Source: Octopus vulgaris
Taxonomy: Eukaryota
DNA length: 64,000 bases
Direction: 5' to 3'
Assembly (NCBI GenBank): GCA_951406725.2
Contig: OX597822.1
Location: forward strand, 37,820,001 to 37,884,000
Of the stretch, positions 12,323-60,848 are shown piece by piece (the first letter of the stretch is position 1; each line of letters opens with the position of its first letter). Under the pieces are notes generated by a model that saw nothing but the letters and a program-made list of their open reading frames with translations, was not told the origin of the DNA and made no database searches. Both the position numbers and the translations under genes were made by a program.

Positions 12323-12330
<8 letters not shown>

Positions 12331-12937
12331 AATAATATAATGGGGAGATTTATCCGATAGACATCAATTTATTAATATATTGCTAAAATTCTATCTACAG
12401 TTGTTTTACATGCTCGTCTCGCTCAATAACAAAATTAATAAAATAAAATTGAATTTCGAAAATAGTAAGCCGAATATTTCATCAGGGTGAAAATTAAAAC
12501 ACAGAAGGAATCACATCATAATTTATTATGATGTTATTCCTTCCATGTTTTAATTCTCACCCGATGAAGTATTTAACTCGCTATTTTCAAAATTCAGTTT
12601 TAATTTATCAATTTTGTTATTGAGCGAGTTGTGCATGCAAAACAATTGTAAGTAGCAGGGAATTTCGAGAATATGGTAATAAATTGATGTCTATCTGATA
12701 AATCCCTCCATTGCCTACTATATTGGAATATTGGGATATATCCATATATATCGAAGTGAAGCAATTATTGATCTCCGTAACATACTAAATTGGTGCCTAT
12801 TATTAAACAATAAACGCCAATACTATTAAGTAATACTGTAATACTGGATTCCTGAACATTTCATAGTTATATAAAATTAAACCGGTGAAGCTTGGATATT
12901 TACAGCTCCTTTTAAGAGGTATCTGTTTTCCTCAAAA

Positions 12938-16262: not shown

Positions 16263-16267
<5 letters not shown>

Positions 16268-16468
16268 TAAACAAACGGCGTAATGTATACTGAATGTAAA
16301 AATGAACGGGAGACAAACAGAAAGTCCATAATTCTTCATCAGTTATCGACCAACGACACTGTTCAGTTTCGCACCTTTAACAATAAAACTGTTTCCCAAT
16401 TGGCGGTGCCCGCAAAAAATAGTTTTCTTGCGTACATTCAGTATACGTTATGTTGTTTGTTTATACAT
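16263..16468. repeat. 36-bp imperfect inverted repeats bounding a 206-bp unit next to (TA)n
   Basis: atgtttaaacaaacggcgtaatgtatactgaatgta versus tacattcagtatacgttatgttgtttgtttatacat. Confidence 0.7.
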
Positions 16469-23157: not shown

Positions 23158-23745
23158 TTCCTAACTACAATAACTTTTTTAGAATACGTTATCGCAGTGG
23201 AGCTCGAACTTGAGGTCACCATTTAACCAGTTGGATTGTTTTTGTTATTCGGTGTTTTCCATAATTTTTACAAATTTATGTTTTAGAAACTCTATCATTA
23301 CAAATAAAAATAAAGATCCTTTAATTTATATTTGTCGGAATTTCGGAATATCTGTCATACACACACTGGAATTTTTCGGGGTTGTTTTTTCGGTGTTTTT
23401 CCGCATTTTACAGTATTCCACTCGCGGCTGAACTTTCGGTAAAAATTTTTAATCCACGCTTTTTTAAATGTCTATCTATCTCCTCTTCATATCTTCGGAA
23501 CGCAAGCCGCCACTTTTTTCTGGTGATGTTATAGTTTCCACATTTTGAAACACTTATAATCCGTATTTTTACACAAAATTTCATGGAAAAGCTATCATGA
23601 ATAAATCAGAAATTCTGGGTATTTTTTTTTCGGGATTTAAATCATGAAAATTAAAATTGAAGTTTTTTTCTCTAAAAATGCTTATTACATGTGTTTCAAA
23701 ATGTGAAATACTATAACATTGAAAATATAATTGTGAAACATACTT

Positions 23746-24275
23746 AAGGCAGCGAGCTGGCAGAAACGTTAGCACGCCGAGCGAAATGCTTAGAGGTATT
23801 TCGTCTGCCGTTACGTTCTGAGTTCAAATTCCGCCGAGGTCGACTTTGCCTTTCATCCTTTCGGGGTCGATTAAATAAGTACCAGTTACGCACTGAGGTC
23901 GACATAATCGACTTAATCCGTTCGTCTGTCCTTAAAGAAATAGGTATTTCGTCTGTCTTTACGTTCTGAGTTCAAATTCTGCCGAGGTCGACTTTGCTTT
24001 TCATCCTTTCGGGGTCGATTAAATAAGTACCAGTTACGCACTGAGGTCGACATAATCGACTTAATCCGTTCGTCTGTCCTTAAAGAAATAGGTATTTCGT
24101 CTGTCTTTACGTTCTGAGTTCAAATTCTGCCGAGGTCGACTTTGCCTTTCATCCTTTCGGGGTCGATTAAATAAGTACCAGTTACGTACTGGGGTCGATA
24201 TAATCGACTTAATCCGTTTGTCTGTCCTTGTTTGTCCTCTCTGTGTTTAGCTCCTTGTGGGTAGTAAAGAAATAG
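23746..24275 (+). mobile_element. SINE family B with internal 148-bp triplication
   Basis: ggtatttcgtctg units start at 23795, 23943 and 24091. Confidence 0.88.
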
Positions 24276-27864: not shown

Positions 27865-28085
27865 CTTGTAGGCCATCTTCTGATATTCTCTTCTCCTTCT
27901 CCAATTCAGAGAGGCTTGAAAACTGGAAGAATTGAAGGCGGCTTGTGTTAAATTTGAATTACTCTAAATTGGATAGAAACGGGGAAAGGGCTGGTTTTAC
28001 TTTGATAAAGTTTCACCTCATTTCCAGTTGCAAATTAACTTCATTGATCTTTGTGAATGCCATGTAAGCAATGTTACGTTAGCAA
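27865..28085 (-). repeat. 221-bp inverted copy of flanking hAT sequence 28608-28828 inside the Gypsy element
   Basis: Reverse-complement match of equal length, bracketed by a 60-bp direct duplication (27808-27867 and 28082-28141). Confidence 0.92.
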
Positions 28086-28157
28086 GGTGCCCTCCCGGTT
28101 GGATGGTGGACTACGACATGGAGCGGAGAGATTGTGATCTTTAAGATCAGGGTGGCG

Positions 28158-28437
28158 TGTGGGATGACGTCAGCAGCTGGGTGCGTTGACCGGAAGCTGG
28201 GGCCACCGGAAGGGGAAGCAGTGAGGCGTGCGCAGGCAGCGGGGATTTCGGCTTTTCCAAAGTGGGTCATCGAGGTGTTAAGACGTGTGAAGACGTTGCT
28301 AAGGTTGGGTGAAGCAGCTGCTATCTTTAGCGTTCGGGTCGGGGCTGTGACGAAGGATCCGTTACCACTGAAGGGTCTCTATCGGAGCGAAGAGAAGGTA
28401 GGTGCCTTTATATATCAACTATCTCGCACACACCACG
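28158..28437 (+). repeat. 3' LTR (280 bp)
   Basis: TGTGG...CCACG followed by the TSD; TATA-like tttatatat near the 3' end. Confidence 0.9.
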
Positions 28438-29024
28438 TGCTCTCAATTCCTGTCTGAGAATGATAAAGATTTTGAACATTTATTGTTGCTCACAGAATTT
28501 CGAAGGTTGACAAAAGGGAAACTGTCAGAGATGTGTTCATTTCCTTTTTAAAACAATTTTTGAATTCTTCCAAGATTCTAATTAACTAAGAAACAGCTAG
28601 CATGGGATTGCTAACGTAACATTGCTTACATGGCATTCACAAAGTTCAATGAAGTTAATTTACAACTGGAAATGAGGTGAAACTTTATCAAAGTAAAACC
28701 AGCCCTTTCCACGTTTCTATCCAATTTAGAGTAATTCAAATTTAACACAAGCCGCTTTCAATTCTTCCAGTTTCCAAGCCTCTCTGAATTGGAGAAGGAA
28801 AAGAGAATATCAGAAGATGGCCTACAAGTGTATTAGTCAAACTAAATGAGCCACACAGAGAAATTTTCGATAGATTTCAGGGTCTTTATTTTTGCTTAAA
28901 ATACCAGGCTGGGTGATTAATATCAATTCCTAGATATCAGAAGTAAGTAAGATGGAAGAATAGTGGCGAAAGATTTTCGGAGAAATGATGTTAGAGTAGA
29001 GAAATCAACTCAAAACGCGATTTC

Positions 29025-34024: not shown

Positions 34025-34026
<2 letters not shown>
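33801..34026 (+). mobile_element. SINE family A, 5' half
   Basis: Head and box present; breaks off at cgcttga where (AAT)n begins. Confidence 0.8.
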
Positions 34027-34089
<63 letters not shown>

Positions 34090-34090
<1 letters not shown>

Positions 34091-34533
34091 GCAATAAAAA
34101 CATGGTTTTGGTCTCTGAGGACAACTCCAACAGAATTAAATTTATGTCTAATAATTCTAACATCAAGAATTCTATATACCAGTGTAAAATTTCTTGTGGT
34201 ACCGATGTCTACTTCTACATTGGTGCATCCTCTTCCCAGTTATCTAAGAGAATTTCAAATCATTATTCATCATTTAGGGATATCAGTAAACGTCATAGCA
34301 CAGTGTTAAGTGAATTGGTTTGGTATCTTAAAGACAACAATAAGGATTTTAGGTTAGATTGGTTCATCCTGTCCATATCTTTTCCTTATGATAAGGGCAA
34401 AGGATTTCGTAACATTTGCAACTCTGAACTCTTCCATATCTTCTTCTCTAAGAATCACCTTGTTAATACACTTATAGAGCGACCTTACAAATGTAAGCAC
34501 TGGCAGAAACATATCTTTAGCTCATATAAGTGA
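34090..34533 (+). pseudogene. PLE GIY-YIG endonuclease domain (open frame, no RT upstream)
   Basis: SIY...YIG motif and conserved R, H, E and N positions; clearly homologous to the domain at 37755-38200 on the minus strand. Confidence 0.85.
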
Positions 34534-34808
34534 TTTTGCCAGTCTTTATAGTTTGAACAGTTAGTTTAACTTGCACTTTACTTCAATAGAAAAATCTACT
34601 TCCAAGCCTTTGAACATTTTTTCAACCAATGTATCCCTCTTTATTTGTTCTCTACTTATTATTTCTTTACCCCATCTCTTTCTAGTATCTGCCTTTGACG
34701 TCGAATCTACTAACGGTTTTCTTAAAAATACTTAATAACGTTCTGTTTATCATTTATGCAGTCATCGAAATTGTTATAATGTCTTGTTGTTGAGATATGC
34801 TCTCTTTT

Positions 34809-34889
34809 TTTCCTGATGAGAAGATTGCATTTTACACCGTTTATTCCTTTGGAATAAAACCAATGTTGTCTTCGAAACATATGTCGAAA
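34809..34889 (+). ncRNA. Minimal type I hammerhead ribozyme, canonical core
   Basis: Stem I tttc/gaaa; CTGATGA; stem II gaaga/tcttc extended by gcatt/aatgt and tttattcc/ggaataaa; GAAA-CATATG-TC, predicted cut after C34885. Confidence 0.9.
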
Positions 34890-34933
34890 GTAAAAGAATT
34901 TGAATAGCATCTGCGTTCAACTCCATTTATTTA

Positions 34934-35002
<69 letters not shown>

Positions 35003-35942: not shown

Positions 35943-36223
35943 CACACACACACACAAAGTTACTTAGAAGATATGTGAACCTCATAAAGGGATGGTTACA
36001 TCCAAGGAAACATTGGTTCTATACCTAGTGTTTTGGGAAATGAACTTTACTGAAATCTATAGGTATATACTAAGCGTATAATTCATGTGCAGTTAATTGA
36101 AGGAAAGAAAATGGAGAGTTAAAAGTTAATCATTATGTATTATTAAAAGTAAAGATTACCAATTTTTTAATAATAAATAATTATTTATTTTAAGTCTCCA
36201 TTTTCTTTCCTTCAATTAACTGA

Positions 36224-36324
<101 letters not shown>

Positions 36325-36795: not shown

Positions 36796-37083
36796 TACAT
36801 ACATACATACATACTGTTACACATTCATATCTATGTGTATACGTGTGTAGAATACATCCCCACTTTGGCACTATTTGTTAGTGAACAGTACGAACTGTGT
36901 TTTAAAGTAAACAGTATTAATACGCTGTGTCTAACGATATATAGGTGTCGCTGCGCTGAAAGTAGCGCAGTTCGTGTAACATGGAAAAGTAAATAAACAC
37001 GTAAAAGAATAACTATATATATATATATTTAGTGAGGGAAGAAATGGAGCTGAACGAAGATTTTACAAAGTTCCTTTTTATTA

Positions 37084-37167
37084 TTTTCTACATATGTTTC
37101 AAAGGCTGCAAAGTCCCTAATTCGGATTGAATAAGGAGACCATTTTGCAGCTTTCTCTCCAGGAAAA
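37084..37167 (-). ncRNA. Minimal hammerhead motif in PLE 3' UTR (core CUGGAGA)
   Basis: Minus strand: ttttc-CTGGAGA-gaaagctgcaaa...tttgcagccttt-GAAA-CATATG-TA-gaaaa; same position and same ACATATGT palindrome as 34809-34889; A6 reads G. Confidence 0.75.
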
Positions 37168-37754
37168 TCCAGGAACTTAAATCTCCAACAAAATGCGCAG
37201 CAAGCTTTTCGACAAACGCTCTCTAGGAGCCCATGGTATGAATGGCACAAAACTGTCTCTCAATATGCGTTGACGTCGGGCTGGGTGAAAGCCGACGAAA
37301 AAGTCCGTTGAGATAATTCGAGGTCAAAATCCGGTTAACATGGGGGAGGGGAAGAATTACAGAAAACCAAAGAGTGTGAATATATTCTGTATGACTAGTG
37401 TTAATATTCGAAATGTTTTAAGAATGAGTGCTATCGTGTTTGGGTGTGAGAAATTGCCTACATGTATGTGTGTGTGCGCCTATGTATGTGTGGCAGTATG
37501 TTTAGGAAGCTGCTAGGGAGAAATATATAGCAGCTATTAATGGTCAAGCAGCTGAAAACAAACCTGTGTCTGTGTGTTCGTCTGTGACCAGTTTATAGAG
37601 AGATGGCTTGTCAACAATGGGAGTATACATCCCTGATAGTATTACTAAATAAGTAGCAGTTCATACGCTAAAAGGGGAGTAATTTCCCCTTACAAATTTA
37701 ATTCAATTTTTTTTTTCCTTTCTTAGGACTTCAAGGGGTTAATTATCTTAGACT

Positions 37755-38391
37755 TCATTGGTATGCAAGAAATGTGTGCCGCCTCCAGTGCGGACATCTA
37801 AAAGAATTTTGCAAAATCGAGTTAACAAGCTGCCCTCGGGCGAACAAAATGTGAAAAAGCTCCGAGTTGCAAAGATTACAGATTCTTTTGCCTCTATCAA
37901 ACGGTCAGACATCGATAAAATCGACCATTCCAGTCTAAAGGTTGAATTCGCGTTCTTCAAACGCCAGACTAATTTACTTAGCCCGGTCGCGTGTTGCTTT
38001 CCAAAATCGCGAAACGTTGTGAAGTGATTCGATATTCTAACGGCCAATTTCGATGATGAAGCTCCGATATACAAGTAGACAACTGATTCAGTATAAACTC
38101 TGCATTGGTAAATGGCGTTTCTAATCTTGGAATTACTAGGTAAGAACCTTATTCTATTGGGATTGGCTTCCGATATTAATACGGCGTTCTTATTACTATG
38201 ATGATTGTAAGAACTACGGCTGTCTTCGACATTATACACCCCATTATCAATACTATTTAATGGAATATCACCTGTATACTCCCTGCCACTGAGAACGCTG
38301 TGATTGCTAATGTCCGTGATACTACTGTTGTTAAAACCGCTGCTAATATTGTTGTTGGGACTCCCTACATTAATGACTCGGTCAGTGCTCT
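37755..38391 (-). pseudogene. PLE linker and GIY-YIG endonuclease, one frameshift
   Basis: AIYQCRVYTESVVYLYIGASSSKLAVRISNHFTTF...LSKLVWRLK, frameshift near 37905, then PFDRGKRICNLCNSELFHILF...RCPHWRRHTFLAYQ*. Confidence 0.88.
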
Positions 38392-39936
38392 CACTAGAGA
38401 AGAAATTGATATAATTCTAGTCGCCAGAAAATCATTTATAAAGTTTGAAAATAAGTTGTGGGTTCGTAAGGATACTCCCAACGAGTTCGATGTACCTATG
38501 GGTAGTTCAGATAGCGCGCAGATTGCCGATTTGGTCGGAATCTATATTCTCTATGAATTATCCGACCAATTCCCGGACATCGGTGGCGGCCTATATCGTG
38601 ACGATTGTCTGTTTTACCTACAAAACACCTCGAACAAAATCGTACAGAAAACTAAAAATAGATTAGCTAGGTTCTTTAATAGGATGGGCATGAGTATAGT
38701 TTTTGATAACGAACTTACTAAGGCTAATTTCTTAGATGTCACACTAAACCTCCATAGCGACTCTTACTGCCCCTACCACAAACCTTCCACTAACTTAAAG
38801 TATGTCAGTGTTTTCTCGAACCACGCTAAAACTATAACAGACAATTTGGTTAAAAATATTTCTCAAAGATTAACTAATTTGTCTGCCAATGTCGACATTT
38901 TGGGGCAGAAAGCGGAATTTTATAACGCCGCCCTGTCTAAAGCCGGTTATAGGGAGAAGGTAGTATATATAGATCCGGCCCTTCCGAAGCCAGCATTCTG
39001 TCATCAGGATAAGGCCAGCTACAATAACATAAATAATATAAGTAGTGATGGTAGCCTGAGGAATGTCGAGACAAGTACATCTAGAATAAATATAGATAAC
39101 ATAAATAAGTTGCGGTCCAGGGGAGGCCATAGTAAGCCAAAACCTATTATTCAACCTAGAAATACCCACCTTAATGTTAGAGTTGACTCCCCGACCCAGT
39201 ACAAAAACAGGAATAAATATATTTGGTTTGTAATTCCCTTTGGTAAACAAATAAGATCTAACCTACCCCTGCAGTTTCGCCAAGCCATTGCCAGTAATTT
39301 TCCCAGAAATTCGAGATATTACTCCACTGTTAACTCACATAAAGTTAGGATAGCCTTCTCCAATACTAAAAATCTTTCACAGATAATTTCCTCCCATAAC
39401 AATAAGCTGCTAAATAAGACCCTCTCACCCACGAACGGAGACGCAGCTCCGTCTAATGCCAGCATAACGCGCAGTAATAATAATAATAATGATAATAGAA
39501 CCGGCACAGATATTAGCAACCTCCATACCAGCCATGGAGTTAATAATAGGAATAAAGATAAGAGCAATGGTTGCGGCATTAACGTTAGTATTGGTAATAG
39601 GGATAAGAGCGCTGACCGAGTCATTAATGTAGGGAGTCCCAACAACAATATTAGCAGCGGTTTTAACAACAGTAGTATCACGGACATTAGCAATCACAGC
39701 GTTCTCAGTGGCAGGGAGTATACAGGTGATATTCCATTAAATAGTATTGATAATGGGGTGTATAATGCCGAAGACAGCCGTAGTTCTTACAATCATCATC
39801 GTAATAAGAACGCCGTATTAATATCGGAAGCCAATCCCAATAGAATAAGGTTCTTATCTAGTAATTCCAAGATTAGAAACGCCATTTACCAATGCAGAGT
39901 TTATACTGAATCAGATGTCTACTTGTATATCGGAGC
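38392..39936 (+). CDS. PLE reverse transcriptase (5'-truncated, uninterrupted frame) with Asn-rich linker
   Basis: ARKSFIKF...FDVPMGSSDSAQIADLVGIYIL, LYRDD catalytic motif, NFLDVTLNL, PYHKP...YVSVFSNH, IWFVIPF. The first about 30 and last about 39 codons of ORF 38300-40054 are junction artefacts. Confidence 0.88.
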
Positions 39937-40206
39937 AAAATGGTCTCCTTATTCAATCCGAATTAGGGACTTTGCAGCCTTTGAAACATATGTAGAAAAT
40001 AATAAAAAGGAACTTTGTAAAATCTTCGTTCAGCTCCATTTCTTCCTTCACTAAATATATAAAACTTCAAATTTCCGCACTAAGGCACGGTTTTGAGACC
40101 CCATGGTCGTAACCTCAACCGTGATTTTTCTGTTGTGATTTTTGCTACCCAGGTATCGGTTATAATTTGAATAATCCGTAACAAGATAATTCATTTATCC
40201 ATTTCA

Positions 40207-40970: not shown

Positions 40971-41532
40971 TACACTATTTCAGTTTTACGTCCCTAATGT
41001 AATGTGAGATAATACTTTCAGTACTATTTCGGTTACAAATTAAACTTAATTTCCAATCACATATTTGCATTTCAAAAATTCAACATTATATATTCTTTGA
41101 TTAGAGGTTATGTTAACCTCGTGAAGGGATGGTTTCATCCAAGGAAATACTGGTTCAATACCTAGTATTTTGGGGGAATTAATTTATATATAGGTATATA
41201 TATATAAAAACATATTGTTTATATTCATATAAAAGAAGAAAAAGAAAATGAAGATTGGGAAGTTAATAATTGTTTATTATTAACAGCAAATTAATCATCA
41301 TCCTTTACAGCTGTTTCAATTAATACTCTTGGATGTTTTATACGCGTCTATGGATTCAGTCTGCTGTAGTGAATCCATAAGCACATAAAACATCCAAGGG
41401 TATATATTTTTTCTCCTCTGAAGATATTATACTCAGTTCATATAAATTTAATATTTACTTAATATTTACTGAGTATTAATTGAAACAGCTGTAAGGGATG
41501 ATGATTAATTTGCTGTTAACTTCCCAATCTCT
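40968..41532. mobile_element. Inverted-end HHR element
   Basis: 41254-41330 is inverted relative to 41470-41530; about 35-bp hairpin at 41323-41403; 41110-41175 is homologous to 35973-36040. Confidence 0.72.
41414..41497 (+). ncRNA. Minimal type I hammerhead ribozyme, canonical core
   Basis: Stem I cct/agg; CTGAAGA; stem II attatactcagt/actgagtattaat (12 bp, one bulge); GAAA-CAGCTG-TA, predicted cut after A41493. Confidence 0.85.
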
Positions 41533-60428: not shown

Positions 60429-60848
60429 CGTCCTTCTTTCTTTCCTTTCCTGAGCGTCCAAAAAGCACTTGTTCCACGTCCTCGCGTTGTTGTGTTTTCC
60501 CTTTGTGTTTTCATGCTTGGATTAACGATATATATATATATTAGTGTACATTTAAACACAAAAGAGGCGACCTTTAACAGGCAGCCTTACATGCTAGAAG
60601 GAGCAGTCAAAACATCCAAAACCACATTTAAGAGCAATTTCGAAGGGAATGAACAATATGAACTTTTACCTTTTTTTTTACAGCCATACCTAGGTTTCGA
60701 ACTCTAATTAGCAAATAAAATAATTTGCTAGGCGAAGTTCTCATCAGTGGCTACACCAAAACACTAACATATAATTTAGAGACAGAATAGCACGTGTCTC
60801 ATCATTATATATTATAATTTTTCAAATTCACCGCGCAAGCGCGGTTTC

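What the first reader, a model, noticed from the sequence alone, without database searches (positions are those of the whole stretch)
37025..40060. Head-to-head PLE insertion with 3' termini at both ends: twin priming in a palindromic target
Both outer ends are the element 3' terminus next to TA. Inside, a minus copy truncated in the linker meets a plus copy truncated in RT. The plus copy jumps from the YIG motif into stem II of the ribozyme at a 2-nt gc microhomology. The 331-bp arms differ at only about 5 visible sites. Established: PLEs often show inverted 5' segments. Inference: because (TA)n is self-complementary, both sides of the break can prime at the RNA 3' end, giving TIR-like ends. 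The same geometry appears in miniature at 12323, 13681, 29770, 41254 and 43292.
Basis: partly seen in the sequence, partly recalled or inferred. Interest (0 to 1): 0.72.

Follow-up and report, generated by a model that had tools for sequence, protein, structure and literature searches.

The report
Head-to-head Penelope retrotransposon insertion
This is a broken jumping-gene insertion, probably from an octopus, made of two partial copies joined back to back inside a TA repeat; the layout is already described for this class of elements, and the one possibly new point is that its lineage lacks a zinc finger thought to help find TA repeats.

Summary
37029-40054 is one insertion of a Penelope-like element (PLE) with a C-terminal endonuclease. 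A 1363-nt minus copy meets a plus copy truncated in RT. Both outer ends are the 3' terminus, next to TA. The arms differ at 5 of 331 and 1 of 127 sites. The plus copy lost 914 nt at a GC microhomology inside hammerhead stem II.

The geometry is published. Craig 2021 lists Penelope-13_HM (Hydra clade, (TA)n, 3045 bp) with a 5'-truncated inverted copy.

'Twin priming' is the wrong term, because the arms overlap and both start at the 3' end. Dual priming (0.45) and fold-back of one cDNA (0.35) both fit and cannot be separated here. A palindromic target is neither necessary nor sufficient.

Of the five miniatures, two fit fully, one plausibly and two only half; none matches this family by BLAST.

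Side finding: this endonuclease and a relative at 34093 have no cysteines where the Hydra CxCx5C linker sits (77 of 77 homologues have at least 2). They diverged under purifying selection and still end in TA.

The parts
37014..37028 (.). Left target (TA)7T tract
37029..38391 (-). Minus copy, 5'-truncated in the Asn-rich linker: linker, GIY-YIG endonuclease, 3' UTR, hammerhead, 3' terminus (may reach 38393 with the sibling allele)
37089..37162 (-). Type I hammerhead motif with long stem II; core CUGGAGA (non-canonical), triplet GUA
37750..38230 (-). GIY-YIG endonuclease region (AIY..YIG, R, NH, CxxC-E, N, CxH); one frameshift near 37905; no cysteines in the linker before the motif
   Evidence: fold shown for the 59%-identical relative
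38384..38393 (.). Central inverted junction; inferred microhomology of about 4 to 10 nt (from protein relatives, not seen directly)
38392..40054 (+). Plus copy, 5'-truncated in RT: RT with YRDD, thumb, Asn-rich linker, start of the endonuclease; open for 514 codons up to the deletion; then 3' half of the hammerhead and 3' terminus
39606..39936 (+). 331-nt inner arm, inverted copy of 38061-38391
39935..39936 (+). GC microhomology at a 914-nt internal deletion (YIG to hammerhead stem II)
40055..40061 (.). Right target ATATATA
34090..34935 (+). Separate insertion of a related family: intact endonuclease, canonical hammerhead, ends in TA, no inverted arm (used as comparator)

Best explanation
One retrotransposition event by a Hydra-related PLE with a C-terminal endonuclease.
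1. The GIY-YIG endonuclease cut both strands of a TA tract (inferred).
2. Each free 3' end primed reverse transcription from the same 3' start site of an element RNA, probably two RNAs on a dimer: dual priming (inferred).
3. One cDNA stopped in the linker and the other in RT (shown by the sequence).
4. The two cDNA ends were joined at a short complementary stretch and second strands were filled in, leaving the 3' terminus at both outer ends (junction shown; microhomology inferred).
5. The plus copy lost 914 nt at a GC microhomology, during copying or later (deletion shown; timing unknown).
The insertion is dead: no intact endonuclease, no canonical hammerhead core, no 5' end.
For: - Geometry.
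- RT identity: 3471 relatives at E<=0.001; among 68 homologues of >=600 aa, DK[TS] in 63 and RW[KR] in 45.
- GIY-YIG fold for the 59%-identical relative: Z 8.9, rmsd 2.4 A over 89 residues to I-TevI; Z 8.7 to T4 EndoII.
- A purified PLE protein nicks and extends both strands from the same start sites and is predicted to dimerise (PMC11167929).
- A 'tail' on only one of two inverted ends is published, which fits two separate starts on RNA (inference).
- The minus arm holds 914 nt that the plus arm lacks, and the plus arm holds 1214 nt that the minus arm lacks, so neither is a plain copy of the other as it now stands.
- The chimeric reading S-A-L across the junction fits the RT of relatives: 25 of 2434 control 9-mers score as high against 11 nearest relatives.
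Against: - Nothing here shows two different RNAs. All 6 coding differences between the arms are non-synonymous (0 synonymous in 110 codons; P=0.26 under neutrality), and the polarisable ones seem to fall on both arms. This looks like decay of identical arms, as fold-back also predicts.
- The miniatures at 12327-12725 and 36085-36227 have nearly equal arms with 14-16 nt spacers, and 41323-41403 is a palindrome at the junction. Both patterns suit hairpin priming better than two independent truncations.
- The microhomology rests on protein relatives and was noticed post hoc.
Confidence: 0.45

Rival explanations
1. Fold-back. One TPRT from the right-hand end copied to the RT region. The cDNA 3' end then annealed to its own linker segment and copied itself back to the terminus and into the TA primer, which annealed to the other side because TA is self-complementary. 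The 914-nt deletion came later and shortened an unstable long palindrome.
For: Same geometry. Inferred inverted microhomology up to 10 nt. Arm differences look post-insertional. Near-symmetric miniatures and a junction palindrome. Microhomology deletions are common in Penelope copies.
Against: Needs the deletion to be post-insertional. The plus linker now differs from the inferred pairing stretch at 2 of 10 positions. In vitro both strands are primed.
Confidence: 0.35
2. Self-priming on an antisense transcript, the model of Arkhipova et al. 2013 for head-to-head PLEs with junction palindromes.
For: Proposed for this geometry. A 4-bp hairpin sits at the junction.
Against: The junction fold is no better than shuffles (z -0.86). 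Purified PAc uses sense RNA with internal start sites.
Confidence: 0.1
3. Two separate insertions, or a later rearrangement between neighbouring copies, brought two 5'-truncated copies together.
For: The window is rich in PLE ends, and 5.1% of it is (TA)>=3.
Against: No TA or host DNA at the central junction, arms only 1.3% apart, and both ends stop at the same base.
Confidence: 0.07
4. Assembly or read artefact (fold-back chimera).
For: PLE inverted structures trouble assemblies. No reads were available here.
Against: The inverted match stops at the element terminus and does not run into the flanks. The arms differ at 6 of 458 sites. Each arm has its own lesion: a frameshift in one, a deletion in the other.
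Confidence: 0.03

Closest known systems
Penelope-13_HM (Hydra clade; Craig et al. 2021, PMC8557442, Files S1 and S2)
   Same: (TA)n target, about 3.0 kb, 5'-truncated inverted copy at the 5' end (nt 1-966), hammerhead near both outer ends on opposite strands.
   Different: Here the plus copy has a 914-nt deletion, the one remaining hammerhead core is non-canonical, stem II is long, and the CxCx5C linker is absent.
Hydra-1_Obim (Octopus bimaculoides; Craig et al. 2021)
   Same: Octopus, C-terminal endonuclease, TA insertion, no pLTR, similar RT motifs by eye.
   Different: A different family: its hammerhead sequence differs, it keeps the CxCx5C linker, and it has no long Asn-rich insert in the alignment rows seen.
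Adineta vaga Pen2a/Pen2 insertions (Arkhipova et al. 2013, PMC3846280)
   Same: Head-to-head inverted ends, overlap at the inverted junction, internal microhomology deletion, Asn-rich insert between RT and endonuclease.
   Different: Those have pLTRs and 9-10 bp TSDs; here any TSD is hidden in TA and no direct pLTR is present.
L1 twin priming and dual priming (Meyer et al. 2010, PMC2837659)
   Same: Both strands prime; inverted product joined internally.
   Different: Twin priming uses an internal site and leaves an internal deletion. This locus duplicates the 3' part, matching the geometry of dual priming, which that paper postulated but could not demonstrate.

Membership tests
EN+ Penelope-like elements (C-terminal endonuclease) | Single ORF with RT followed by a GIY-YIG endonuclease | tested here: met
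   RT to YIG in one frame, 514 codons; GIY-YIG fold for the relative. Pfam is weak: GIY-YIG E 0.023 for the relative, none for this copy.
EN+ Penelope-like elements (C-terminal endonuclease) | Type I hammerhead near the 3' end | tested here: met
   5 cores in the window against 0-1 in 20 shuffles. 3 compensatory stem-II pairs against the relative, 85.7% of cells paired against 35-49% when slid, but 56 of 500 shuffles reach it. Core here is non-canonical.
EN+ Penelope-like elements (C-terminal endonuclease) | 5'-truncated tandem or inverted arrangement | tested here: met
   described
EN+ Penelope-like elements (C-terminal endonuclease) | 30-40 bp tail at one end | tested here: not met
   Both ends stop at the same base; the tail is described as optional.
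Hydra clade | CCHH absent; CxxC and CxH around the conserved E and N | tested here: met
   CNLC..E, N and CPH in the minus copy
Hydra clade | CxCx5C linker before GIY-YIG | tested here: not met
   0 Cys in the 30 aa before the motif, against >=2 in 77 of 77 homologues scored and >=4 in 74; present in all 9 Hydra rows of Fig. S7. So it is filed as Hydra-related, not as a member.
Hydra clade | RWK and DKT motifs N-terminal to RT | not testable with these tools
   That region is truncated here; among homologues, DK[TS] in 63 of 68 and RW[KR] in 45 of 68.
Hydra clade | Insertion into (TA)n | tested here: met
Hydra clade | Groups with named Hydra RTs in a tree | tested here: inconclusive
   The tree of 182 rows has no named Hydra reference; comparison with Fig. 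S7 was by eye only.
Twin priming (L1 sense) | Second priming at an internal RNA site; two fragments with an internal deletion | tested here: not met
   Both outer ends are the 3' terminus and 458 nt are duplicated.
Dual priming | Two RNAs, each primed at its 3' end on opposite strands | tested here: inconclusive
   Geometry fits; two distinct templates not shown.

The most novel reading that the evidence does not exclude
An octopus lineage of Hydra-related PLEs lost the whole linker zinc finger, went on evolving under purifying selection (pS 0.93, pN 0.24 over 135 codons between two families), and still ends in TA at both insertions seen. The linker finger would then not be what directs PLEs to (TA)n, against the association drawn by Craig et al. 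2021; targeting would rest on the GIY-YIG core or on the RNA end. The caveats are n=2, possible mobilisation in trans by finger-bearing families, and a TA-rich genome.
Probability: 0.45. Interest if true: 0.5.

Novelty: new member of a known kind. Interest (0 to 1): 0.3.

Why it matters
How PLEs make inverted ends is still open (stated in PMC8557442). This locus is a clean, young example, but it does not settle the question alone. A family-wide allele comparison between arms would separate dual priming from fold-back.

Practical points:
- Such ends mimic terminal inverted repeats and can be filed as DNA transposons or MITEs (inference).
- Family fragments are annotated as host genes: 'myb-like protein I' and 'GATA zinc finger domain-containing protein 14-like'.
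- The missing linker finger offers a natural test of what targets PLEs to TA repeats.

Tried and rejected
Searches that gave nothing:
- Rfam found nothing at gathering score in the window and only 3 chance-level hits at the locus.
- Pfam gave no family for either copy.
- The PDB sequence search with the RT profile was empty.
- Foldseek gave no match at E<=0.001; the best rows were GIY-YIG nucleases.
- No close full-length family member was found: none among 901-2570 aa proteins, 3 distant hits among short ones. The junction microhomology could therefore not be read at DNA level.
- The flanks match only microsatellites, and the right flank matches nothing, so target-site deletion or duplication is unresolved.
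- The L1 rearrangement preprint 10.1101/2024.12.14.628481 (passages) did not help.

Superseded runs:
- A first hammerhead scan was too strict; replaced.
- A first pair count had a mis-registered structure; redone.

Ideas rejected:
- An ORF start in the terminal segment: the frame that stays open to the terminus shows no family N-terminal motif by eye.
- A special junction hairpin: z -0.86.

Left unchecked: cluster membership and names for most homologues, the protein Atlas view, viral and metagenome contig collections, and any eukaryotic genome or reads.

Full report
OBSERVATION. Self-comparison finds two inverted pairs: 37022-37148 with 39935-40061 (126 of 127 identical) and 38061-38391 with 39606-39936 (326 of 331), with 1214 unique nt between the inner arms. 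Both outer ends stop at the same base, 37029 and 40054, and run into (TA)7T on the left and ATATATA on the right. The inverted match ends within the TA and does not enter the flanks. A related copy at 34090-34935 ends at the homologous position in TA, so this is the 3' terminus of the family. The plus copy jumps at a shared GC (39935-39936) from the YIG codons into the 5' strand of hammerhead stem II; 914 nt are missing.

WHAT THE ELEMENT IS. The plus frame is open for 514 codons from 38393 to the deletion: RT with YRDD, thumb, a long Asn-rich linker and the start of the endonuclease. It has 3471 relatives at E<=0.001. The nearest, at 93% identity, is an Octopus sinensis protein named 'myb-like protein I', so the host is probably an octopus (inference). 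Among the 68 homologues of at least 600 aa out of 229 held, 63 have DK[TS], 45 RW[KR], 62 CxxC-E, 57 CxH and 44 a strict CxCx5C. These are the Hydra-clade traits of Craig et al. 2021. The minus copy carries the full endonuclease with one frameshift near 37905. The intact relative, 59% identical, folds at pLDDT 81.7 and matches I-TevI (Z 8.9, rmsd 2.4, 89 aligned) and T4 EndoII (Z 8.7); the top four rows include the UvrC GIY-YIG domain. A structural scan finds 5 hammerhead cores in the window against 0-1 in 20 shuffles. The one here has CUGGAGA, where the relative and the Hydra cores in File S2 have CUGANGA. Stem II shows 3 compensatory pairs against the relative, but with three rows this is weak: 56 of 500 shuffles reach it. 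The insertion is inactive.

CENTRAL JUNCTION. Against the plus arm the match stops at 38391 with no visible overlap. The sibling P0001 reads E-S-T where the plus arm reads K-S-A, which equals the minus copy and extends it to about 38393. Reading the RT frame leftward through the junction gives S-A-L-T. In the smallest tree group around this RT, 8 of 11 rows with data have L and 5 of 11 have S at those places (3 of the 14 other rows lack the region). Only 25 of 2434 control 9-mers score as well. A microhomology of 4 to 10 nt is therefore likely, but it is inferred, post hoc and not seen in DNA.

ARM DIFFERENCES. All 6 coding differences are non-synonymous (P=0.26 under neutrality). Tentative polarity from P0001 and the distant relative puts 3 on the plus arm and 2 on the minus arm. 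An open 514-codon frame at this divergence is unremarkable: a stop arose in 36% of 2000 simulations. The pattern fits identical arms that decayed after insertion, and gives no sign of two different templates.

MECHANISM. Dual priming (0.45): a purified PLE nicks and extends both strands from the same internal start sites, needs no homology to the cut DNA, and is predicted to dimerise. Fold-back of one cDNA followed by a later deletion (0.35) gives the same layout and better explains near-symmetric miniatures. Antisense self-priming (0.10) is the published model of Arkhipova 2013. Separate events (0.07) and artefact (0.03) fit poorly. 'Twin priming' fails its definition, and the both-3'-ends case is 'dual priming'. 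The claim that TA self-complementarity causes the geometry is not supported. Of 5 strict hammerhead ends, 3 have an inverted arm (29825, 37162, 41418) and 2 run into TA without one (34813, 60747; scores 25 and 32 against a null median of 26, n=150). Adineta Pen2a has inverted ends at an Asn-coding target. Under fold-back, however, a symmetric target would help the final join (inference).

MINIATURES. 12327-12516/12531-12725 match at 156 of 188 columns and 43298-43370/43553-43624 at 67 of 72; both have TA near both ends. 41252-41328/41471-41530 match at 59 of 60 with ends 45 and 75 nt from TA. 29767-29806/29927-29969 (39 of 40) and 13683-13744/13933-13994 (48 of 62) have TA at one end only. Arm lengths vary, but none of these matches the main element, so they appear to be other families. 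Hammerheads on opposite strands 100-700 bp apart are already reported (PMC4209133).

PRIOR ART. [quoted passage not shown] Its supplement lists Penelope-13_HM (Hydra clade, (TA)n, 3045 bp, inverted copy nt 1-966, hammerheads on both strands) and an Octopus Hydra family. Arkhipova 2013 calls head-to-head the commonest arrangement and reports junction overlap, microhomology deletions and Asn-rich inserts. A search for 'twin priming' with 'Penelope' listed 3 papers, none about PLEs by title. None of the 15 papers listed for 'dual priming', 'retrotransposon' and 'Penelope' held the first term, but 651 matched two terms. Subscription reviews and Repbase text were not searchable, so absence from print is not shown.

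SIDE FINDING. Both window endonucleases have 0 cysteines in the 30 residues before the GIY motif (the relative's stretch is 26 residues long). All 77 homologues in which the motif and CxxC-E were located have at least 2, and 74 have at least 4. All 9 Hydra rows in Fig. S7, including the Octopus family, keep the linker. Between the two window families pS is 0.93 and pN 0.24 over 135 codons, so the finger-less enzyme stayed under selection, and both insertions end in TA, which covers 5.1% of the window. Craig et al. linked the linker to TA targeting. The only paper found for Penelope, Octopus, Hydra and GIY-YIG was that one. Caveats: n=2, possible trans-mobilisation, and Penelope/Poseidon elements also lack a linker. 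Because this defining feature is not met, I file the element as a Hydra-related C-terminal-endonuclease PLE, not as a Hydra member.

WHAT WAS READ. PMC8557442: passages, section 11, supplement parts 2, 58, 59 and search hits. PMC3846280: passages and section 6. PMC11167929: parts 1-2 of 4. PMC4209133: part 1 of 4 and passages. PMC2837659 and 10.1101/2024.12.14.628481: passages. 10.64898/2026.07.22.740005: part 1 of 5; its supplements were not seen and may list similar miniatures. Figures were not visible. Hammerhead numbering and the octopus SINE label are recalled.

VERDICT. Real and accurately seen, but a known PLE geometry with a near-exact precedent; the mechanism label needs correcting. 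Interest 0.3.

Noticed in passing
window 37750-38230 (-) and 34093-34530 (+): Both endonucleases lack the Hydra CxCx5C linker, show purifying selection between them, and end in TA.
   Followed up: partly
Its left flank 35964-36153 is 75% like 41101-41290, the flank and left arm of the 41254 miniature, so the two may descend from one composite repeat.
   Followed up: partly
window 16263-16468 and 23526-23719: Further short inverted-arm elements; 16263 abuts TA and has hammerhead-like core pieces in permuted order.
   Followed up: partly
window 39605 and 39611: Two of the seven arm differences lie within 7 nt, inside the inferred junction microhomology, and both are apparently derived in the plus arm. 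Unexplained.
   Followed up: partly
window 41323-41403: Palindrome exactly at the inverted junction of the 41254 miniature, as described for Adineta Penelopes.
   Followed up: no
window 60687-60747 (-), 40717 (+), 36609 (+): More hammerhead-like cores 135-206 nt before TA tracts with no inverted arm; only 60747 passes the strict scan.
   Followed up: partly
window 34025-34090: An (ATA)22 microsatellite sits at the 5' end of the related copy, in the Asn-coding frame; it may be an expanded part of the Asn-rich linker.
   Followed up: no
P0001, P0158: PLE RT fragments annotated as 'myb-like protein I' (O. sinensis) and 'GATA zinc finger domain-containing protein 14-like' (O. bimaculoides).
   Followed up: partly
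window 27865-28828, 25445-25604/28158-28317, 45529-45622/47840-47933: Young long repeats in other elements: a 221-nt inverted pair at 97%, a 160-nt direct pair at 95% in a GC-rich, retroelement-like stretch, and a 94-nt inverted pair at 99%.
   Followed up: no
window 23794-24229: Tandem of about 3 units of 148 nt, belonging to a SINE-like repeat dispersed through the window.
   Followed up: no
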